This document shows, one piece after another, positions 22,451 through 34,464 of a stretch of 64,000 bases of DNA. The notes under the pieces were generated by a model, which was not told where the DNA came from, ran no database searches, and saw nothing but the letters and a program-made list of their open reading frames with translations. Each line of letters begins with the position of its first letter. Positions within the stretch are counted from its first letter, which is position 1. Position numbers and translations under genes: made by a program. The DNA comes from Candidatus Heimdallarchaeota archaeon (lineage in GTDB: Archaea; Asgardarchaeota; Heimdallarchaeia; Heimdallarchaeales; Heimdallarchaeaceae): positions 1 to 64,000 of the forward strand of contig DXJF01000112.1 in NCBI GenBank assembly GCA_019057375.1. The letters are read 5' to 3'.

Positions 22451-23131
22451 TCAGTCTGTCTCATCTTGACAATAAAGTGATTCTGATCCCATTAAATGAC
22501 CATCTTCACTTTTTGTAGATAGATATTTTACATTATAGACATTAGGTGTAATTGCAATAGGAATTCTATCAATGACTTCTATGTTACTTCCACATAGTTC
22601 TGCTACTTTTCTAGGATTATTAGTTAGAAGCTTAACACATTTAACGTGCAAAGATTGTAAGATATCAATAGCTACAAGATATGAACGTTCATCTGCCTTA
22701 AAACCTAAAGCTTCATTTGCTTCGTTTGTATCATATCCAATCTCTTGAAGTGTATATGCCTTGAGTTTATTAAACAAACCAATCCCTCTTCCTTCTTGAC
22801 GGAGATAGATTAGTATGCCATGTTTCTGCTGTGAAAGGTAATTTAATGCAAATTCCAGTTGCTCTCTACAATCACATCGCAATGATGTAAAAGCGTCACC
22901 TGTAAGACACTCTGAATGAATGCGTAGTGGAACATCTTCCTTTCCGACTGGATTCCCTTTAACGATTACAGCATGTTCTTTCATATCTCTTAAACTTAAA
23001 AGTCCTATAATTTCAAATTCTCCAAATTGAGTAGGTAATTTAGCAATAGATCCAAAATGGATTAATTCTGTGTCTTTAAGATTTAACTCTGATATTTTTT
23101 CTCTGATTTGTTTCTCAATATCTTCAGGCAA
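22451..23131 (-). CDS. ribA: GTP cyclohydrolase II
   Basis: RIHSECLTGDAFTSLRCDC, YLRQEGRGIGL, LLTNNP. Confidence 0.95.
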   Translation of the reverse strand: MPEDIEKQIREKISELNLKDTELIHFGSIAKLPTQFGEFEIIGLLSLRDMKEHAVIVKGNPVGKEDVPLRIHSECLTGDAFTSLRCDCREQLEFALNYLSQQKHGILIYLRQEGRGIGLFNKLKAYTLQEIGYDTNEANEALGFKADERSYLVAIDILQSLHVKCVKLLTNNPRKVAELCGSNIEVIDRIPIAITPNVYNVKYLSTKSEDGHLMGSESLYCQDETD

Positions 23132-23186
23132 TCTAATTCCTCACAATTAAGTACTGTTTGAATTGCTTTTGAATGTTGATGTTTCA

Positions 23187-23468
23187 CTAATAAGTTACTT
23201 TAAAATAAGAAAGATCTCCTCTAGTTTTTTCCCATTTAACTTGTATGTCGTAAACTTTAGCTGAAGATGGACCCTGTTTAGCAAAACTAATTAGTCTATT
23301 CAATCTCTCTTCGGACCCTTCAGCAATTATTTCTACTGATCCATCCCTCATATTTCGTACTGTTCCTTTAAGGCCCAATTTCCTTGCTACATCTCTTGTT
23401 GTGGCTCTAAAAAAAACTCCTTGAACCATTCCAAATACTATAATTTCTATTCTTTTTTCTTCTACCAT
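23187..23468 (-). CDS. acyP: Acylphosphatase
   Basis: GMVQGVFFR and GTVRNMRDGSVEIIAEG. Confidence 0.95.
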   Translation of the reverse strand: MVEEKRIEIIVFGMVQGVFFRATTRDVARKLGLKGTVRNMRDGSVEIIAEGSEERLNRLISFAKQGPSSAKVYDIQVKWEKTRGDLSYFKVTY

Positions 23469-23477
23469 AGATACACA

Positions 23478-24233
23478 TCAGCCAATTTTGTTTAGTAAAT
23501 TTTCAGTAAAATCCGGTAAGGTTTCTTCACATGGTCCAAATATAGAATAATCACAATAACTCGAAATTGGGGTAGCTTCAATGTTGAATTCTATAATCAT
23601 AGAGTTGTTTTGCTTTGCATAGAGTGGTAAAGTGGATACAGGAGTAACTATACCAGAAGTTCCAATTACAAGCATCACATTTGATTGCGTTGTCCACTCA
23701 GCTGCCTTTTGCCATCTCTTGGGGTCTAAAGGTTCTCCAAACCAAACAACATCAGGTCGAAGAAGATTGGTTTCACATTCTGGACAGTATGGTAATTCAA
23801 TTCCTTTTTGTGCTTTTTTTTCATCATCCCACCTTTCTATGTTAGTGCAACTAATGCATCTTGCATACCTGATTCTGCCATGTATCTCAACAATATTTCT
23901 GGAACCTGCTATTTCATGTAATCCATCGACATTCTGAGTAATAATTCCAAGAGCAATTTTCTCTTTTTCCAATTCAGTGAGTGAATAATGAGCTGGATTT
24001 GGTTTAGCTTCTAATAGGATTCTCATCCTTGCTCTATACCATTCCCATACAAGTTTCGGGTCTCTTGAAAACGCATGGGGCGTTGCTAACTCATCAGCTC
24101 TGTAATTGTTCCACAACCCATCTTCTCCTCTAAAAGTAGGCATTCCTGAAGCTTTAGAGACCCCAGCACCAACTACAGAAACTATTGTTGGATTTAGCTC
24201 AGCAACTTCATCTGCCACTGAATTGATGTTCAT
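23478..24233 (-). CDS. cobB: NAD-dependent protein deacylase (sirtuin)
   Basis: GAGVSKASGMPTFRG, TQNVDGLH, HG..C..C, C..C..LRPDVVWFGE, GTSG. Confidence 0.95.
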   Translation of the reverse strand: MNINSVADEVAELNPTIVSVVGAGVSKASGMPTFRGEDGLWNNYRADELATPHAFSRDPKLVWEWYRARMRILLEAKPNPAHYSLTELEKEKIALGIITQNVDGLHEIAGSRNIVEIHGRIRYARCISCTNIERWDDEKKAQKGIELPYCPECETNLLRPDVVWFGEPLDPKRWQKAAEWTTQSNVMLVIGTSGIVTPVSTLPLYAKQNNSMIIEFNIEATPISSYCDYSIFGPCEETLPDFTENLLNKIG

Positions 24234-24344
24234 TATTAAAATTAAGAATTACACAAATAAAAAAGTATAGGGAAAGTAATTGCTCTGTAATGCTTCAATG
24301 TACATTTCCTTAGTTTTGATCATCAATTTTAGTTTTTGTTAAGA

Positions 24345-25439
24345 TTATATGTTGAAACGTCTTTTCTTTCCAGTTACTTCTTGATATAGTTTATCAATGC
24401 TACTTGAATATTCAGGATAACGAGTGAAGGCAATTTTGAATGCCATATCAATATCTGCTTCTCCCATATTTGCAAATTGCTGCTTAGGATTTGTGGTTAA
24501 TGCATAGTATTGGGATATTATACTAGTGCCTGAATATCTTATGATTTTTACAACCTCTCCTTCTAAACCTCGAATTGATGAATCAATAATATTTCTATGA
24601 TCTTTACCTCCACCTTCAACATCTTGTTGTAATTTCAGTAACAATTGTTTGCTGAATTCGCTCTCATCACCGCCTTTAACTTGTCCTGCTATGAGATCAC
24701 AAATAACATTATCAGGATAATCAGAAACTAAGTCAGATGTTGCAAAGAGAACATCAAATTGATCTGGGGGGATATACTCCTTAGGAAACAGTGAAATCAA
24801 TAATTCTCTTCTGGGTTGAAATGATTGCAATGATGATAAAAGTGGTTTAACCATTTCTTGAGTACAAACAGCAACTACTGGTTTTCCTATTAGTATAGCT
24901 TCCACCACTTTATCTTGACCTTTGTTAATCAGTCTCATGAAGAAATAAGGTGAAGTTTCTGATCTGATAACTTCTACGGTTTGAGCTGTTGCAGTCTCTT
25001 GTTTAGTCATGATTGAGGAAAGTTTAGTGGCCCAACCTCTTATTCTCATTTGAAGAGCTTCATCTAACTCATAGCCAGGTTCATAGAGAATTAGACCAGA
25101 AAGTTGTTTTGCAATATTGGAACTATGATAGTTAAAAACTGGAACTTTTGTATAAAGCTGTGATTGCAATTCTTCTTGGATGACGTAAGTTAAACAAGCC
25201 ATAGTAATGGGTGATCTCTTGCTTTTGCATGGTATACCAAAGAAGAAAGAATATGCAACTCCCCCTGTATCATGGAGTGGCATAACTGCACTTGCTTCTC
25301 TTAAAATATCTGTTGCTGCAGCCCCCGATAACATACGAATAGATACTTTATGGGAATCTTCTTCTGTGAGGTTATCGCGTTGTAAGACTTTCACACCTAC
25401 GGTATCATCAAATACACTAAAACAAATTTTTTGTTCCAT
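24345..25439 (-). CDS. Hypothetical protein, DENN-domain-like (uDENN/longin N-terminus plus cDENN-like core)
   Basis: N-terminal beta-FDDTVG-beta-helix pattern typical of uDENN; EAILIGKPVVAVC resembles the cDENN core. Judged by eye only. Confidence 0.5.
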   Translation of the reverse strand: MEQKICFSVFDDTVGVKVLQRDNLTEEDSHKVSIRMLSGAAATDILREASAVMPLHDTGGVAYSFFFGIPCKSKRSPITMACLTYVIQEELQSQLYTKVPVFNYHSSNIAKQLSGLILYEPGYELDEALQMRIRGWATKLSSIMTKQETATAQTVEVIRSETSPYFFMRLINKGQDKVVEAILIGKPVVAVCTQEMVKPLLSSLQSFQPRRELLISLFPKEYIPPDQFDVLFATSDLVSDYPDNVICDLIAGQVKGGDESEFSKQLLLKLQQDVEGGGKDHRNIIDSSIRGLEGEVVKIIRYSGTSIISQYYALTTNPKQQFANMGEADIDMAFKIAFTRYPEYSSSIDKLYQEVTGKKRRFNI

Positions 25440-31414: not shown

Positions 31415-32437
31415 ATGGCTAAAATTGTAAGCAAAGAATTTTGCGCATTCCATTTCCACAATGATTCTGATGGTGAGTGTTCTAATTGTGGATTAGCAAT
31501 TTGCAATCTTGACCAACAATATGACTTACAAGCTAACAGACAATGTCAAATATGTTTCAATTTAACAAGAGCCAAGAAGATTGCAAGGTATATGCAATTT
31601 GGTTTGTGGGGTGTAATTATTTCGCTTGTTGTAATGTTATGGTTATTACTAAGAGCTAGCGGAAATACTTTTTATGCTTTCCTGCCAGTTATTTTACTAT
31701 TAGTTGTTCCATATCTTCTTCGTCCTGTTCTGATGAAATTGTATTTCAGAGATTTAGCGCCCATTGAGTCTATATTGCCTATCCTTCGTTATTTTGAAGG
31801 TACTGGAAATATGGACCATTACAAACTTTTCTTGAGATTCTTAGGCAAATTAACTGAAGAAGATATTAAAGATATCCAAAAACCATTATATGATTATCTA
31901 ATTCCTGCTCTAGCATTTAATTATTCTAAGTTACCTGAAGGTTGGGAAGAAAATTTGATTAAAAATCTTCAAATTTCTAAGGAAAGGTTTATCGAACTCA
32001 TGGTGAAGGATTATCGCACTATCTTGATTCAGACTGCCGTTCATAGTGCACAGTCTAATATGGCTCTCTTCATTTTCTACTTAAGTGAAACAGCTTCTGA
32101 TAAAGATCTCATCAAAGAATACATAATTGAAATTACATCTCAAGAAGTTATGAAGCTAAATGAAGAAGAGGTAAATATCATTTATAAACATCTTTTAGAA
32201 GATTTGTATCTTTATGAAGATAGATTTCTTGAACTCTGTGATGAATTGGAACTTAAAAAACAAAAAGATTTAATTATTCAACTAATAGAACGATTTGATC
32301 CCCCCCCAGTACCAAAGAATCAAATTGAAGCTGTTATGACTCCAGATCAACTTAGGGAGAAAAGAAGAAAGGAAAAGGATTTAGCTGAAAATCCTCCTCC
32401 TCTAGAAATCGAGCAAAAAACTGAGGAAACTCAGTAA
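31415..32437 (+). CDS. Membrane protein with N-terminal B-box-like zinc finger, two TM helices and a helical C-terminal domain
   Basis: CAFH...CSNC...C..D...CQIC followed by two hydrophobic segments. Confidence 0.7.
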   Translation: MAKIVSKEFCAFHFHNDSDGECSNCGLAICNLDQQYDLQANRQCQICFNLTRAKKIARYMQFGLWGVIISLVVMLWLLLRASGNTFYAFLPVILLLVVPYLLRPVLMKLYFRDLAPIESILPILRYFEGTGNMDHYKLFLRFLGKLTEEDIKDIQKPLYDYLIPALAFNYSKLPEGWEENLIKNLQISKERFIELMVKDYRTILIQTAVHSAQSNMALFIFYLSETASDKDLIKEYIIEITSQEVMKLNEEEVNIIYKHLLEDLYLYEDRFLELCDELELKKQKDLIIQLIERFDPPPVPKNQIEAVMTPDQLREKRRKEKDLAENPPPLEIEQKTEETQ

Positions 32438-32501
32438 AATCTCCTCTTTTTATTTTGTAACTGTTCGCAACTCATATATTTACTAGTTTTGAATCTCTAA
32501 T

Positions 32502-32580
32502 TGAGAATAGCGAATATGATGAGGAATTACAACCGATGATTCCATGACTTTCCTAGCTCACTCTGATGACGTTATTCTCA
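32502..32580 (+). ncRNA. Box C/D guide sRNA candidate 1
   Basis: C box ATGATGA 32516-32522; D' ATGA 32536-32539; C' ATGACTT 32544-32550; D CTGA 32563-32566; guides of 13 and 12 nt; 11-bp terminal stem 32502-32512/32570-32580; upstream TATA-like TATATTTA 32475-32482 and downstream T-tract. Confidence 0.75.
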
Positions 32581-32665
32581 TTATCTTTTTTAGGTAAAAG
32601 TTCTCTAAAAGAGAAAAAGCTTTAGTACTTTCAGTCAGTATCTATTTCAAAAAGAGAACCTCATG

Positions 32666-32746
32666 TTGAGAATAATGGAAATGATGAAAATGCACGAACA
32701 AATGATTCTATGATTAACCTTGAACACCCAGTTTCGCTACTCTCAA
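32666..32746 (+). ncRNA. Box C/D-like sRNA candidate 2 (tandem paralog with degenerate D box)
   Basis: Same scaffold as copy 1: TTGAGAATA...ATGATGA (32681-32687), ATGA-TTCT-ATGATTA (32702-32716), and an imperfect 15-bp terminal stem 32666-32680/32732-32746. CCAG stands where CTGA is expected. Confidence 0.55.
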
Positions 32747-32784: not shown

Positions 32785-34464
32785 ATGATAGTATCTATCT
32801 TCGTTATTATCAATTATAAAGGAACACAGATGACAGTAACTAAACGAAACAGGAAATCTATTACGTTTGCATGGCAATTTGCAGGTTTTTTTCTTTATCT
32901 TTTTACAGTTGCTGTTGCTTTAGTAGGTTTGGTATATTTGGTCTGGTCTTTTGTTTTAATGATTCAAAGATTCTATGTGGTACCGTTCCAGAATATAATG
33001 ATATTAGAGTTTATTTTGAATCTAACAACCTTACTAATAGAATTTTTAGGAGTATTCTATACTGCTATACTATTGAACCACATGGCTTCTACCTGTATGA
33101 ATCCTCCTATTCTAACAGAAGAGAAGGCCATCATAGAAAATTATCCAACAGTTAGTATACTCATTCCTATTAGGCATCCTGAGTATGAAATTCTTAGAGA
33201 AACTTTAGTTTCCATTTCAGAGGTTGACTATCCTAAAGAAAAACTTACTGTGTTCCTAGGAGATGATACCGAAAAAGAGCATGAAAGTTATCTGAAAACC
33301 GTTGAACTAGCTCACCATTATAACGTTCAACACATACATGATCCATCAAATATTCATTTCAAAGCTGGAATGTTAAACGTTGTCTTAAAACATGTAACAT
33401 CAGAATTTTTTATACTATTAGATTATGATCATAAGATAGAACCAAAGATTATCACCAAATCTGTCAAATTACTAATGAATAATTCACAACTAGCTTTCGT
33501 ACAACCCAAAGTAAATTTTAGACTTGTTAAATCAAAACTACAAGTATGGGAATCCGTTATGTATGCCCAATTTTATGAAGTATTTCAACGATCAAAAACA
33601 AAGCATTCTACAGTTTTGACTAATGGTTCTACAGCTTGTTATCGCAAGTCATATGTTGATGAAATTGGTGGAATACCATTTGATACATTCACAGAAGATG
33701 TTGATATTTCAGTTAAGCTTCTTGCAAAAGGATACCAAACAGAATTAGTTGATGAATACGGTAGTTTTGGTTTGATTCCAGCAAATTTCTCACTTCTCTT
33801 ATCACAAATATTAAGATGGGCAAAAGGGAGCATGCAAGTCCTTAGACTAAGATGGAAGAAAATAATGTCAGCTAAAATGCCTTTCATTCATAGGATAGAT
33901 TTACTGTTCAGCGCGTCGCTGTTTTTTATTGCCTCTTCAGTATACTTAAATCTAGTTTTCTATGTTATTATGTATTTCACAAACAGTTCTGTAGTTCGAT
34001 TACCAATGAGTGTTTTTCCACCATTATTAATCATGCCAATAGCATTTGCAGTTTCTTACCAACTTTCTGGAATAATAGCCGTTATTTTCGCTAGAAGAAG
34101 TGGAATTACAAATCTAAAATTGTTTGACCTTGTTTATTTCTTAATTCTCGCTCTCGTACTTAACCCATTTACTGTTTACGCTGTTTTCAAGTCCATATTC
34201 AAGCGAAAAATCCCATCAAGAGATAGGGATGAATGGAATGAAAAAGTTCCTTATTTTATACTTTCTTTTATCATTTCCATCTTGGGTGGTGGTCTCGTTA
34301 CTATCTCAGTTTTTGATATTTTAAACAATGGGTTTACTGGTTCCTTTTGGCTAATTTTAGGTCTCTTGGGTTTGACCATGCTAGCAACTTTTCCAGTGTG
34401 TATTTTCTTCCATTTCTCAACAAAACACAACAAACCTTATTTTGTTAAAGAGTTTAACACATAA
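32785..34464 (+). CDS. Processive GT2 glycosyltransferase, cellulose-synthase-like (start possibly ATG 32830)
   Basis: GDD, HFKAGMLN, LDYDH (DxD), TEDVD, QILRW (QxxRW); 2 N-terminal and about 5 C-terminal TM helices; no PilZ domain. Confidence 0.9.
   Translation: MIVSIFVIINYKGTQMTVTKRNRKSITFAWQFAGFFLYLFTVAVALVGLVYLVWSFVLMIQRFYVVPFQNIMILEFILNLTTLLIEFLGVFYTAILLNHMASTCMNPPILTEEKAIIENYPTVSILIPIRHPEYEILRETLVSISEVDYPKEKLTVFLGDDTEKEHESYLKTVELAHHYNVQHIHDPSNIHFKAGMLNVVLKHVTSEFFILLDYDHKIEPKIITKSVKLLMNNSQLAFVQPKVNFRLVKSKLQVWESVMYAQFYEVFQRSKTKHSTVLTNGSTACYRKSYVDEIGGIPFDTFTEDVDISVKLLAKGYQTELVDEYGSFGLIPANFSLLLSQILRWAKGSMQVLRLRWKKIMSAKMPFIHRIDLLFSASLFFIASSVYLNLVFYVIMYFTNSSVVRLPMSVFPPLLIMPIAFAVSYQLSGIIAVIFARRSGITNLKLFDLVYFLILALVLNPFTVYAVFKSIFKRKIPSRDRDEWNEKVPYFILSFIISILGGGLVTISVFDILNNGFTGSFWLILGLLGLTMLATFPVCIFFHFSTKHNKPYFVKEFNT

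What the first reader, a model, noticed from the sequence alone, without database searches (positions are those of the whole stretch)
32502..32580. Unannotated box C/D guide RNA predicted to methylate the LSU site equivalent to yeast Am2946
The geometry is textbook: C box, 13-nt guide, D' ATGA, 4-nt loop, C', 12-nt guide, D CTGA, closed by an 11-bp stem, with a TATA-like box upstream and a T-tract downstream. The D guide CCTAGCTCAC (32552-32561) can form 10 bp (one G-U) with the conserved peptidyl-transferase-centre sequence GUGAGCUGGG. The D+5 rule puts the methyl on the A of GAGC, which is E. coli A2577 and yeast Am2946 (snR71 target). A probable Asgard sRNA guiding a eukaryote-conserved site would link archaeal sRNAs to eukaryotic snoRNAs. 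The long terminal stem is also more snoRNA-like than most archaeal sRNAs. I could not assign a target for the D' guide.
Basis: partly seen in the sequence, partly recalled or inferred. Interest (0 to 1): 0.8.

Follow-up and report, generated by a model that had tools for sequence, protein, structure and literature searches.

The report
Asgard rRNA methylation guide RNA
This is a real, conserved but ordinary small guide RNA of an Asgard archaeon that most likely directs sugar methylation of one, perhaps two, nucleotides at the ribosome's catalytic centre. Distant archaea carry the same guides, so it is not a special Asgard-eukaryote link.

Summary
The described anatomy is exact. Window 32502-32580 (+) has box C, a 13-nt spacer, D' AUGA, a 4-nt loop, C', a 12-nt spacer and box D CUGA, closed by an 11-bp stem.

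It is an orthologous gene. A covariance model finds it in 28 of 30 other genomes of the same family, and in all 26 loci checked it lies between the same two genes. The stem shows compensatory changes.

The D guide pairs 10 bp with the organism's own 23S rRNA and puts the methyl on A2577 (E. coli numbering, checked against K-12 rrlH), which is yeast Am2946. All orthologues keep 10-13 bp, and the only guide changes are wobble-preserving.

This copy pairs only 6 bp. Relatives pair 7-11 bp, and sRNAs of two other Asgard families carry the same two-target combination.

Nop5, fibrillarin and L7Ae genes are present. No RNA data exist.

The same guides occur in Methanopyrus kandleri sR56 and sR17 and in Sulfolobus acidocaldarius sR127, so the eukaryote link is not Asgard-specific.

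This scan already reported the same RNA family on other genomes (e1-5554359, e1-5637239), with the same conclusion.

Verdict: a new member of a known kind, of low to moderate interest.

The parts
32473..32482 (+). AT-rich TATA-like box (CATATATTTA), 20-29 nt upstream of the stem
   Evidence: Sequence. An AT-rich box at a similar distance is seen in the 27 orthologous loci printed. This is weak evidence in a 33% GC genome.
32502..32512 (+). 5' arm of the 11-bp terminal stem
   Evidence: Covariation at the inner three pairs. A-U to G-C double change in the outer stem of a divergent group.
32516..32522 (+). Box C, AUGAUGA
   Evidence: Conserved in all orthologues; the only variants are AUGAAGA, AUGACGA and AUGAUUU.
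32523..32535 (+). D' guide spacer (13 nt). The invariant core ACAACC is at 32529-32534 and guide position 5 is 32531.
   Evidence: The core is invariant in 29 orthologues. It pairs with GGUUGU (G2549-U2554), the only GGTTGT in the 23S rRNA, 16S rRNA and 41 tRNAs. Position 5 faces U2552.
32536..32539 (+). Box D', AUGA (canonical CUGA in several orthologues)
32540..32543 (+). Loop between D' and C'
   Evidence: Variable in sequence and length among orthologues.
32544..32550 (+). Box C', AUGACUU (canonical AUGAUGA or GUGAUGA in two other genera)
32551..32562 (+). D guide spacer (12 nt). The paired part CCUAGCUCAC is at 32552-32561 and guide position 5 is 32558.
   Evidence: 10 bp (one G-U) with own LSU 3059-3068. 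Position 5 faces LSU A3062 = E. coli A2577.
32563..32566 (+). Box D, CUGA
   Evidence: CUGA in 28 of the 29 orthologues; UUGA in G043.
32570..32580 (+). 3' arm of the terminal stem
32586..32591 (+). T-tract, a possible archaeal terminator
   Evidence: Sequence only. Not conserved in position among orthologues.
32667..32745 (+). Tandem paralogue (copy 2). It has the same scaffold but box D is lost and the D guide has decayed. Its D' guide AAAUGCACGAACA is aimed at the A loop three nucleotides further on (U2555).
   Evidence: Covariance model hit of 50.2 bits, E = 1e-7. A more intact copy 2 exists only in G006. A-loop pairing is 7+4 bp.

Best explanation
Window 32502-32580 (+) is the gene of a double-guide box C/D sRNA, transcribed on its own from an upstream TATA-like box.

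Inferred mechanism, from the established one for archaeal C/D RNPs:
1. The terminal stem brings boxes C and D together into a kink-turn, and C' and D' form a kink-loop.
2. L7Ae binds both, and Nop5 and fibrillarin assemble on them.
3. The 12-nt D guide pairs with 23S G2574-G2583 (helix 90 region of the peptidyl-transferase centre). Fibrillarin then 2'-O-methylates A2577, the nucleotide opposite the fifth guide position. This is yeast Am2946.
4. The D' guide is aimed at the A loop 25 nt upstream, and its fifth position faces U2552 (yeast Um2921).

In this genome the D' arm keeps only a 6-bp core. It may methylate weakly, act only as a second anchor or chaperone contact, or be redundant with an RrmJ-like enzyme.

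Shown here: sequence anatomy, orthology, conservation and covariation, complementarity to the organism's own rRNA, and presence of the protein genes.

Inferred: transcription, RNP assembly and the methylations.
For: Anatomy and spacing:
- All four boxes are present with spacers of 13 and 12 nt and an 11-bp stem.

Orthology:
- Model R1 finds one copy in 28 of 30 other genomes of the family, in 4 of 5 genera.
- In all 26 orthologous loci tested it lies between the orthologue of a 340-aa protein and a GT2 glycosyltransferase. Those proteins have drifted to 36-54% identity, while the boxes and guide cores stay fixed.

Stem:
- 92% of cells are paired, against 34-57% when the partner is slid.
- 3 pairs show double changes, plus an A-U to G-C change in the outer stem.
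- The pair next to the kink-turn also covaries: A-U, G-U, G-C (my reading).

D guide:
- The ten paired nucleotides are invariant in the 18 sequences aligned, while flanking positions vary.
- In 29 orthologues the duplex is 10-13 bp, and the only changes inside it (A to G opposite U, U to C and C to U opposite G) keep pairing.
- The target sequence is identical in all 14 congeners with an assembled 23S.

D' guide:
- The ACAACC core is invariant.
- Pairing with the A loop is 6 bp here, 7-9 bp in several lineages, and 11 bp (10 Watson-Crick, GCGAACAACC) in five genomes, always with position 5 on U2552.
- Short-stem sRNAs in two other Asgard families (1 of 1 and 4 of 4 genomes) combine a D guide to A2577 with a D' guide GGCGAACA(AC). 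Under the 12-nt spacing rule this also puts position 5 on U2552.

Machinery:
- A Nop5-fibrillarin operon and an L7Ae gene are present.

Precedent:
- U2552 is predicted to be sRNA-guided in five archaea (PMC4644070).
- M. kandleri sR56 and sR17 and S. acidocaldarius sR127 carry the same guides.
Against: - There are no transcript, RNP or methylation data for this organism.
- The D-guide match on its own is reached by 9-15% of random 13-mers. A weaker alternative exists at LSU 876-885 (10 bp with 3 G-U, pairing from position 3).
- The D' guide here pairs only 6 bp. That is below the 10-12 nt usual for archaeal guides (PMC7994747).
- The conserved GAAUU just 5' of the D' core has no explanation.
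- An RrmJ/RlmE-like protein is present in all 31 genomes of the family and could make Um2552 without a guide (198 aa, 195 bits to TIGR00438, below its 300-bit cut-off).
- C' and D' are non-canonical in this copy (AUGACUU and AUGA).
Confidence: 0.8

Rival explanations
1. It is the same C/D sRNA, but in this genome only the D arm is a methylation guide. The D' arm is an eroding or orphan guide, or a mere second anchor or chaperone contact, and U2552 is methylated by the RrmJ-like protein.
For: - Only 6 bp of A-loop pairing here, against 9-11 bp in relatives.
- An RrmJ-like gene is present in every genome of the family.
- Orphan guides arising by mutation are described for archaeal sRNAs (PMC7994747).
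Against: - The 6-nt core ACAACC is invariant in all 29 orthologues, although neighbouring positions change freely. This argues for continuing selection on A-loop pairing.
- The RrmJ-like protein scores below the equivalog cut-off and could be a tRNA Trm7-type enzyme instead.
Confidence: 0.4
2. The D guide acts on a different site or RNA than A2577, for example LSU 876-885, or the rRNA match is a coincidence.
For: - Random 13-mers reach the same match quality 9-15% of the time.
- A 10-bp alternative with 3 G-U pairs exists.
Against: - Exactly the nucleotides paired with G2574-G2583 are invariant or change only to wobble partners across 29 orthologues and two further families.
- Position 2, unpaired in the alternative, is invariant.
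- The same guide is assigned to this site in M. kandleri, and S. acidocaldarius sR127 carries the same guide sequence.
Confidence: 0.07
3. It is not a guide RNA. It is a kink-turn-containing leader or L7Ae-binding regulatory element of the downstream glycosyltransferase operon, or a small inverted-repeat DNA element (MITE-like).
For: - It lies 205 nt upstream of a GT2 gene on the same strand and has 11-bp terminal inverted repeats.
- L7Ae binds kink-turns in mRNAs (PMC5539422, seen only as an abstract).
Against: - There is one copy per genome at a fixed syntenic site, apart from a local tandem duplicate. That is not the pattern of a mobile element.
- Two 10-13 nt segments complementary to adjacent rRNA sites, at the exact box spacing, are not expected of a leader.
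- It has its own upstream AT-rich box.
Confidence: 0.04

Closest known systems
Methanopyrus kandleri sR56 and Sulfolobus acidocaldarius sR127 (archaeal box C/D sRNAs; supplement of Dennis et al. 2015, PMC4644070)
   Same: - Same D guide core followed by CUGA: ACCCAGCUCACG in sR56 and AACUCAGCUCACU in sR127.
- sR56 is assigned to 23S alignment position A2851. This equals E. coli A2577 by the paper's offset of 274.
- Same kind of RNA and same inferred mechanism.
   Different: - They have different second guides: sR56 is assigned to G2761, and sR127 has an A-rich D' spacer whose target I did not look up.
- They have short or no terminal stems.
- There is no detectable sequence relationship outside the guide and boxes, so common descent versus convergence on an invariant target cannot be told.
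M. kandleri sR17 and other archaeal sRNAs predicted to guide A-loop Um2552 (five of seven species in PMC4644070)
   Same: The sR17 D' guide is AGCGAACAACCG-CUGA. This is the same A-loop guide as GCGAACAACC in the divergent orthologues here, and it contains this window's ACAACC core. U2552 is a known archaeal sRNA target.
   Different: - This window's copy has only the 6-nt core.
- Here the A-loop guide is combined with the A2577 guide on one RNA.
Yeast snR71 (Am2946) and snR52 (Um2921) box C/D snoRNAs
   Same: The same two rRNA nucleotides are methylated (PMC5199042; numbering offset is my own count). Same RNP type.
   Different: - In yeast the two sites are guided by two separate snoRNAs.
- No Rfam snoRNA family matches this sequence. 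The best hit is snoZ105 at 17 bits against a threshold of 45.
- Homology is therefore not shown.

Membership tests
Archaeal box C/D sRNA (2'-O-methylation guide) | Box C (RUGAUGA) near the 5' end and box D (CUGA) near the 3' end | tested here: met
   AUGAUGA at 32516-32522 and CUGA at 32563-32566. Conserved in orthologues.
Archaeal box C/D sRNA (2'-O-methylation guide) | A terminal stem juxtaposes C and D so that a kink-turn with tandem sheared G-A pairs can form | tested here: met
   11-bp stem with covariation. The GA dinucleotides of both boxes are invariant. The kink-turn itself is inferred, not modelled.
Archaeal box C/D sRNA (2'-O-methylation guide) | Internal D' and C' boxes with spacers of about 12 nt | tested here: met
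   D' is AUGA, C' is AUGACUU, and the spacers are 13 and 12 nt. Canonical CUGA and AUGAUGA or GUGAUGA occur in other genera.
Archaeal box C/D sRNA (2'-O-methylation guide) | D guide complementary (about 10 bp) to a stable RNA of the same organism, with the target opposite position 5 | tested here: met
   10 bp with own 23S LSU 3059-3068, with position 5 on A3062 = A2577. Maintained in 29 orthologues.
Archaeal box C/D sRNA (2'-O-methylation guide) | D' guide complementary (about 10 bp) to a stable RNA | tested here: inconclusive
   Only 6 bp with the A loop (position 5 on U2552) in this genome. Relatives pair 7-11 bp, and the sRNAs of two other Asgard families pair 9-10 bp by my count from the sequences.
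Archaeal box C/D sRNA (2'-O-methylation guide) | L7Ae, Nop5 and fibrillarin encoded in the genome | tested here: met
   PF01269 at 305 bits and PF01798 at 227 bits in adjacent genes on contig C82; PF01248 at 90 bits on C80.
Archaeal box C/D sRNA (2'-O-methylation guide) | Expressed as a stable small RNA that binds L7Ae and directs methylation | not testable with these tools
   No RNA sequencing run holds this DNA. No biochemical tool is available.
Orthologue of a eukaryotic snoRNA family (snR71 or snR52 type) | Sequence or structure similarity beyond the boxes and the target-dictated guide | tested here: not met
   No Rfam family reaches its gathering score. At E up to 10 there are only chance-level snoRNA hits of 17-22 bits.
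Orthologue of a eukaryotic snoRNA family (snR71 or snR52 type) | Same rRNA target nucleotide | tested here: met
   A2577 corresponds to Am2946 and U2552 to Um2921. The same holds for non-Asgard archaeal sRNAs, so this does not discriminate.

The most novel reading that the evidence does not exclude
One vertically inherited Asgard sRNA has long coupled the two peptidyl-transferase-centre methylations Um2552 and Am2577 on a single RNA. It is found in three Asgard families of at least two classes. It would be the archaeal forerunner of what eukaryotes split into separate snoRNAs (snR52 type and snR71 type). In the window's own family (a Heimdall-group family by earlier scan notes) it gained a long, sequence-invariant closing helix that could reflect a snoRNA-like, stem-dependent maturation rather than the usual archaeal end-trimming or circularisation.
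Probability: 0.1. Interest if true: 0.55.

Novelty: new member of a known kind. Interest (0 to 1): 0.3.

Why it matters
The full-text library held no catalogue of Asgard box C/D sRNAs, and Rfam has no model for this one. The locus therefore adds a well-supported, family-wide conserved guide RNA, with both targets assigned, for the closest archaeal relatives of eukaryotes.

It also gives a clean natural series of guide evolution:
- a D guide frozen by an invariant target;
- a D' guide ranging from 11 bp to 6 bp among orthologues;
- a tandem duplicate whose D' guide has slid by 3 nt along the same loop.

It does not bear on eukaryogenesis. The same sites are guided by the same guide sequences in Methanopyrus and Sulfolobus.

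Tried and rejected
- **Alternative D' target in domain I.** LSU 217-226 would pair 10 bp from guide position 4. Rejected: in G001, G016, G020 and genus g10 the target changes UU to AA at the would-be methylated position, while the guide stays identical.
- **A fully complementary target for the conserved GAAUUACAACC.** GGTTGTAATTC occurs 7 times in the genome besides the antisense of the sRNA itself (2.4 expected). Three of these lie in copies of one repeat. In five other genomes the hits are unrelated and scattered, with no conserved target.
- **tRNA targets.** None of the 41 tRNAs found by aragorn contains GGTTGT. The tRNA-Tyr anticodon loop does not fit.
- **Another sRNA with a full A-loop guide in this genome.** None found.
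- **Covariation between D' guide quality and the RrmJ-like gene.** None. The gene is in all 31 genomes.
- **A looser two-guide pattern across the phylum.** Apart from one unexamined candidate (G049, family f9), it added nothing beyond families f1, f10 and f11 above the control rate.
- **A simple genome-wide C/D scan, to ask whether long stems are general.** Too few candidates and a poor control, so no conclusion.
- **RNAalifold on the wide alignment.** It gave no structure because the 3' arms of the divergent group are misaligned. Stems were checked per sequence instead.
- **Expression.** No RNA holder is listed among public sequencing runs.
- **Taxon naming.** The protein atlas gave no taxon for Nop5.

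Full report
**Observation**

It consists of an 11-nt stem arm, AAU, box C AUGAUGA, a 13-nt spacer, D' AUGA, loop UUCC, C' AUGACUU, a 12-nt spacer, box D CUGA, UGA, and the complementary 11-nt arm (one G-U pair).

The RNA folds with the terminal stem at -19.8 kcal/mol, z = -2.7 against shuffles. It lies in a 347-nt gap between a 340-aa ORF without Pfam or NCBIfam match (31415-32437, +) and a GT2 glycosyltransferase gene (32785-34464, +). No ORF of 40 aa or more lies on it. Rfam has no family for it.

**Organism**

The window is contig C63 of a 3.47-Mb, 33% GC, 89%-complete assembly. The genome encodes:
- a full-length eukaryote-type actin (447 bits to PF00022);
- an ESCRT-II EAP30 protein above the Pfam cut-off;
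- a 3578-nt 23S rRNA.

From established knowledge, this combination marks an Asgard archaeon. Earlier notes of this scan call it Heimdall-group. I did not test that label beyond these markers. DNA runs that hold the stretch are marine sediment metagenomes and may be its source.

**Is it a gene? Orthology and selection**

BLAST found the element in 17 of 24 congeners at 98-75% identity. A covariance model built from those sequences (R1) then found one copy in 28 of 30 other genomes of the family, in four of five genera, and none in the other families of the order.

In all 26 loci examined it sits between the orthologues of the same two genes on the same strand. Those proteins have diverged to 36-54% identity. 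It is therefore a vertically inherited gene, not a mobile repeat.

Across the alignment the loop, the nucleotides next to the boxes and the inner stem vary. The boxes, the D guide and a 6-nt core of the D' guide do not.

The stem is supported in several ways:
- 92% of cells are paired, against 34-57% when partners are slid.
- Three pairs show changes on both sides.
- The outer stem shows an A-U to G-C change in the most divergent group.
- The pair that extends the stem to the kink-turn also covaries: A-U, G-U, G-C (my reading).
- In other genera D' is canonical CUGA and C' is canonical AUGAUGA or GUGAUGA.

An AT-rich box lies at a similar distance upstream in every locus printed. This fits an archaeal TATA box but is weak evidence in an AT-rich genome.

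**D guide**

The organism's own 23S rRNA has GUGAGCUGGG at LSU 3059-3068. The guide pairs with it from guide position 2 to position 11 (9 Watson-Crick pairs plus 1 G-U), and position 5 faces LSU A3062.

A gapless alignment with E. coli K-12 rrlH shows LSU position = E. coli + 485 in this region. The target is therefore A2577. U2552, G2553, U2585 and A2602 were verified on the same E. coli sequence. Yeast Am2946 (snR71) and Um2921 (snR52) are listed in PMC5199042. The yeast offset of 369 is my own count.

By itself the match is unremarkable. 9-15% of random or shuffled 13-mers do as well somewhere in the rRNA. The comparative evidence is what counts:
- The target stretch is identical in all 14 congeners with an assembled 23S.
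- In all 29 orthologues the duplex is kept at 10-13 bp.
- The only substitutions inside it are A to G opposite U, and U to C or C to U opposite G, which all preserve pairing.
- Positions just outside the duplex vary freely.

**D' guide**

The invariant core ACAACC (guide positions 2-7) is complementary to GGUUGU. [quoted passage not shown] Six base pairs would be chance on their own. About 1.2 matches are expected in 5.1 kb. Three observations raise it above chance:
- The site is 25 nt from the D target. Closely spaced double targets are typical of archaeal sRNAs (PMC7994747).
- Orthologues extend the same pairing to 7-9 bp, and in five genomes to 11 bp with GCGAACAACC, always with position 5 on U2552.
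- A pattern search over 400 Asgard genomes found short-stem sRNAs in two other families (1 of 1 and 4 of 4 genomes) outside the window's class. Their D guide ACCAGCUCAC or CUCAGCUCAC targets A2577. Their D' spacer GGCGAACAACGA or GGCGAACAGAAG again puts position 5 on U2552 under the 12-nt spacing rule.

The family's D' target is therefore U2552 with good confidence.

In this genome's lineage the 5' part of the guide has been replaced by GAAUU, so function here is uncertain. That pentamer is conserved in four genera and I could not explain it:
- A domain I alternative fails the covariation test.
- No conserved fully complementary target exists.

An RrmJ/RlmE-like methyltransferase is encoded in every genome of the family and could make Um2552 without a guide. 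In yeast, from my own knowledge, Spb1 can back up snR52 in the same way.

**Machinery**

Nop5 (425 aa) and fibrillarin (227 aa) are adjacent genes on contig C82, and L7Ae is on C80.

**Comparison with what is known**

U2552 is predicted to be sRNA-guided in five of seven archaea studied by Dennis et al. 2015. Their supplement lists three sRNAs with the same guides:
- M. kandleri sR56, with D guide ACCCAGCUCACG-CUGA, assigned to alignment position A2851. This equals A2577 by the paper's offset of 274.
- S. acidocaldarius sR127, with D guide AACUCAGCUCACU-CUGA.
- M. kandleri sR17, with D' guide AGCGAACAACCG-CUGA.

Both guides of this RNA therefore already exist in Euryarchaeota and Crenarchaeota, on different sRNAs. 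That the sites are also methylated in yeast is true of those archaea too, so nothing here ties Asgard sRNAs specially to snoRNAs. No sequence homology to a snoRNA family was detectable.

The features particular to this family are:
- the combination of the two guides on one RNA, shared with two other Asgard families;
- the long closing helix, whose outer 7 bp are invariant in the 18 genomes found by BLAST. This helix is specific to one family. The other Asgard versions have 3-4 bp.

Full-text searches found no paper describing Asgard C/D sRNAs. Earlier follow-ups of this scan on other genomes reached the same verdict on the same RNA family.

**Surroundings**

A second copy lies 165 nt downstream, at 32667-32745 (model score 50 bits). 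It keeps the stem, box C, D' and C'. It has lost box D (CCAG) and the D guide.

Its D' spacer AAAUGCACGAACA pairs 7+4 bp with the A loop, shifted by three nucleotides, so position 5 faces U2555. A more intact copy 2, with D guide ACCUAGCUCACC and box D CGGA, exists only in G006. The nearest relatives lack the segment. It looks like an old local duplicate that is decaying in this genome.

**Verdict**

This is a real box C/D guide RNA gene. The D target A2577 is well supported. The D' target U2552 is supported for the family but doubtful in function for this copy. It is ordinary in kind: a new member of a known kind, with no expression or modification data.

Noticed in passing
window 32667-32745 (+): Tandem paralogue of the sRNA. 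Box D is lost and the D guide has decayed. Its D' guide is shifted 3 nt along the A loop, so position 5 faces U2555. A more intact copy exists only in G006, and the segment is absent from the closest relatives.
   Followed up: yes
own genome contig C12, 23S rRNA positions 3086-3240 (locus L001); not in the window: A 155-nt insertion in helix 93 of the 23S rRNA, between E. coli positions 2600 and 2601 and next to A2602. It folds into a long hairpin. It is present in G000, G001, G006, G009, G013, G016 and G020 and absent from G002, G004, G005, G008, G019 and G023. It is probably an archaeal rRNA intron. The splice motif was not examined.
   Followed up: partly
window 32523-32528 and orthologues: The pentamer GAAUU just 5' of the D' guide core is conserved in four genera, yet it does not pair with the A loop or with any conserved target I could find.
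   Followed up: yes
own genome C65:74711(-), C81:7970(+), C132:109(+); not in the window: Three copies of a repeat of about 60 nt. It contains a 10-bp hairpin (AAGAATTACA ... TGTAATTCTT) that happens to hold the full complement of the D' spacer. Its nature is unknown; it may belong to a mobile element.
   Followed up: no
10-30 nt downstream of the sRNA in most orthologous loci (for example L015-L020, L181, L184): A conserved motif of the type GAAAYNCTTAAKAG lies between the sRNA and the GT2 gene. It is probably the promoter of the glycosyltransferase operon. In this window its place is taken by copy 2.
   Followed up: no
own genome C82:17024-17554 (-) and C82:~23000-25000 (+): An RrmJ/RlmE-like methyltransferase gene lies about 6 kb from the Nop5-fibrillarin operon on the same contig.
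   Followed up: partly
window 31415-32437 (+): A 340-aa protein with no Pfam or NCBIfam match is conserved directly upstream of the sRNA in all four genera, at 36-92% identity.
   Followed up: no
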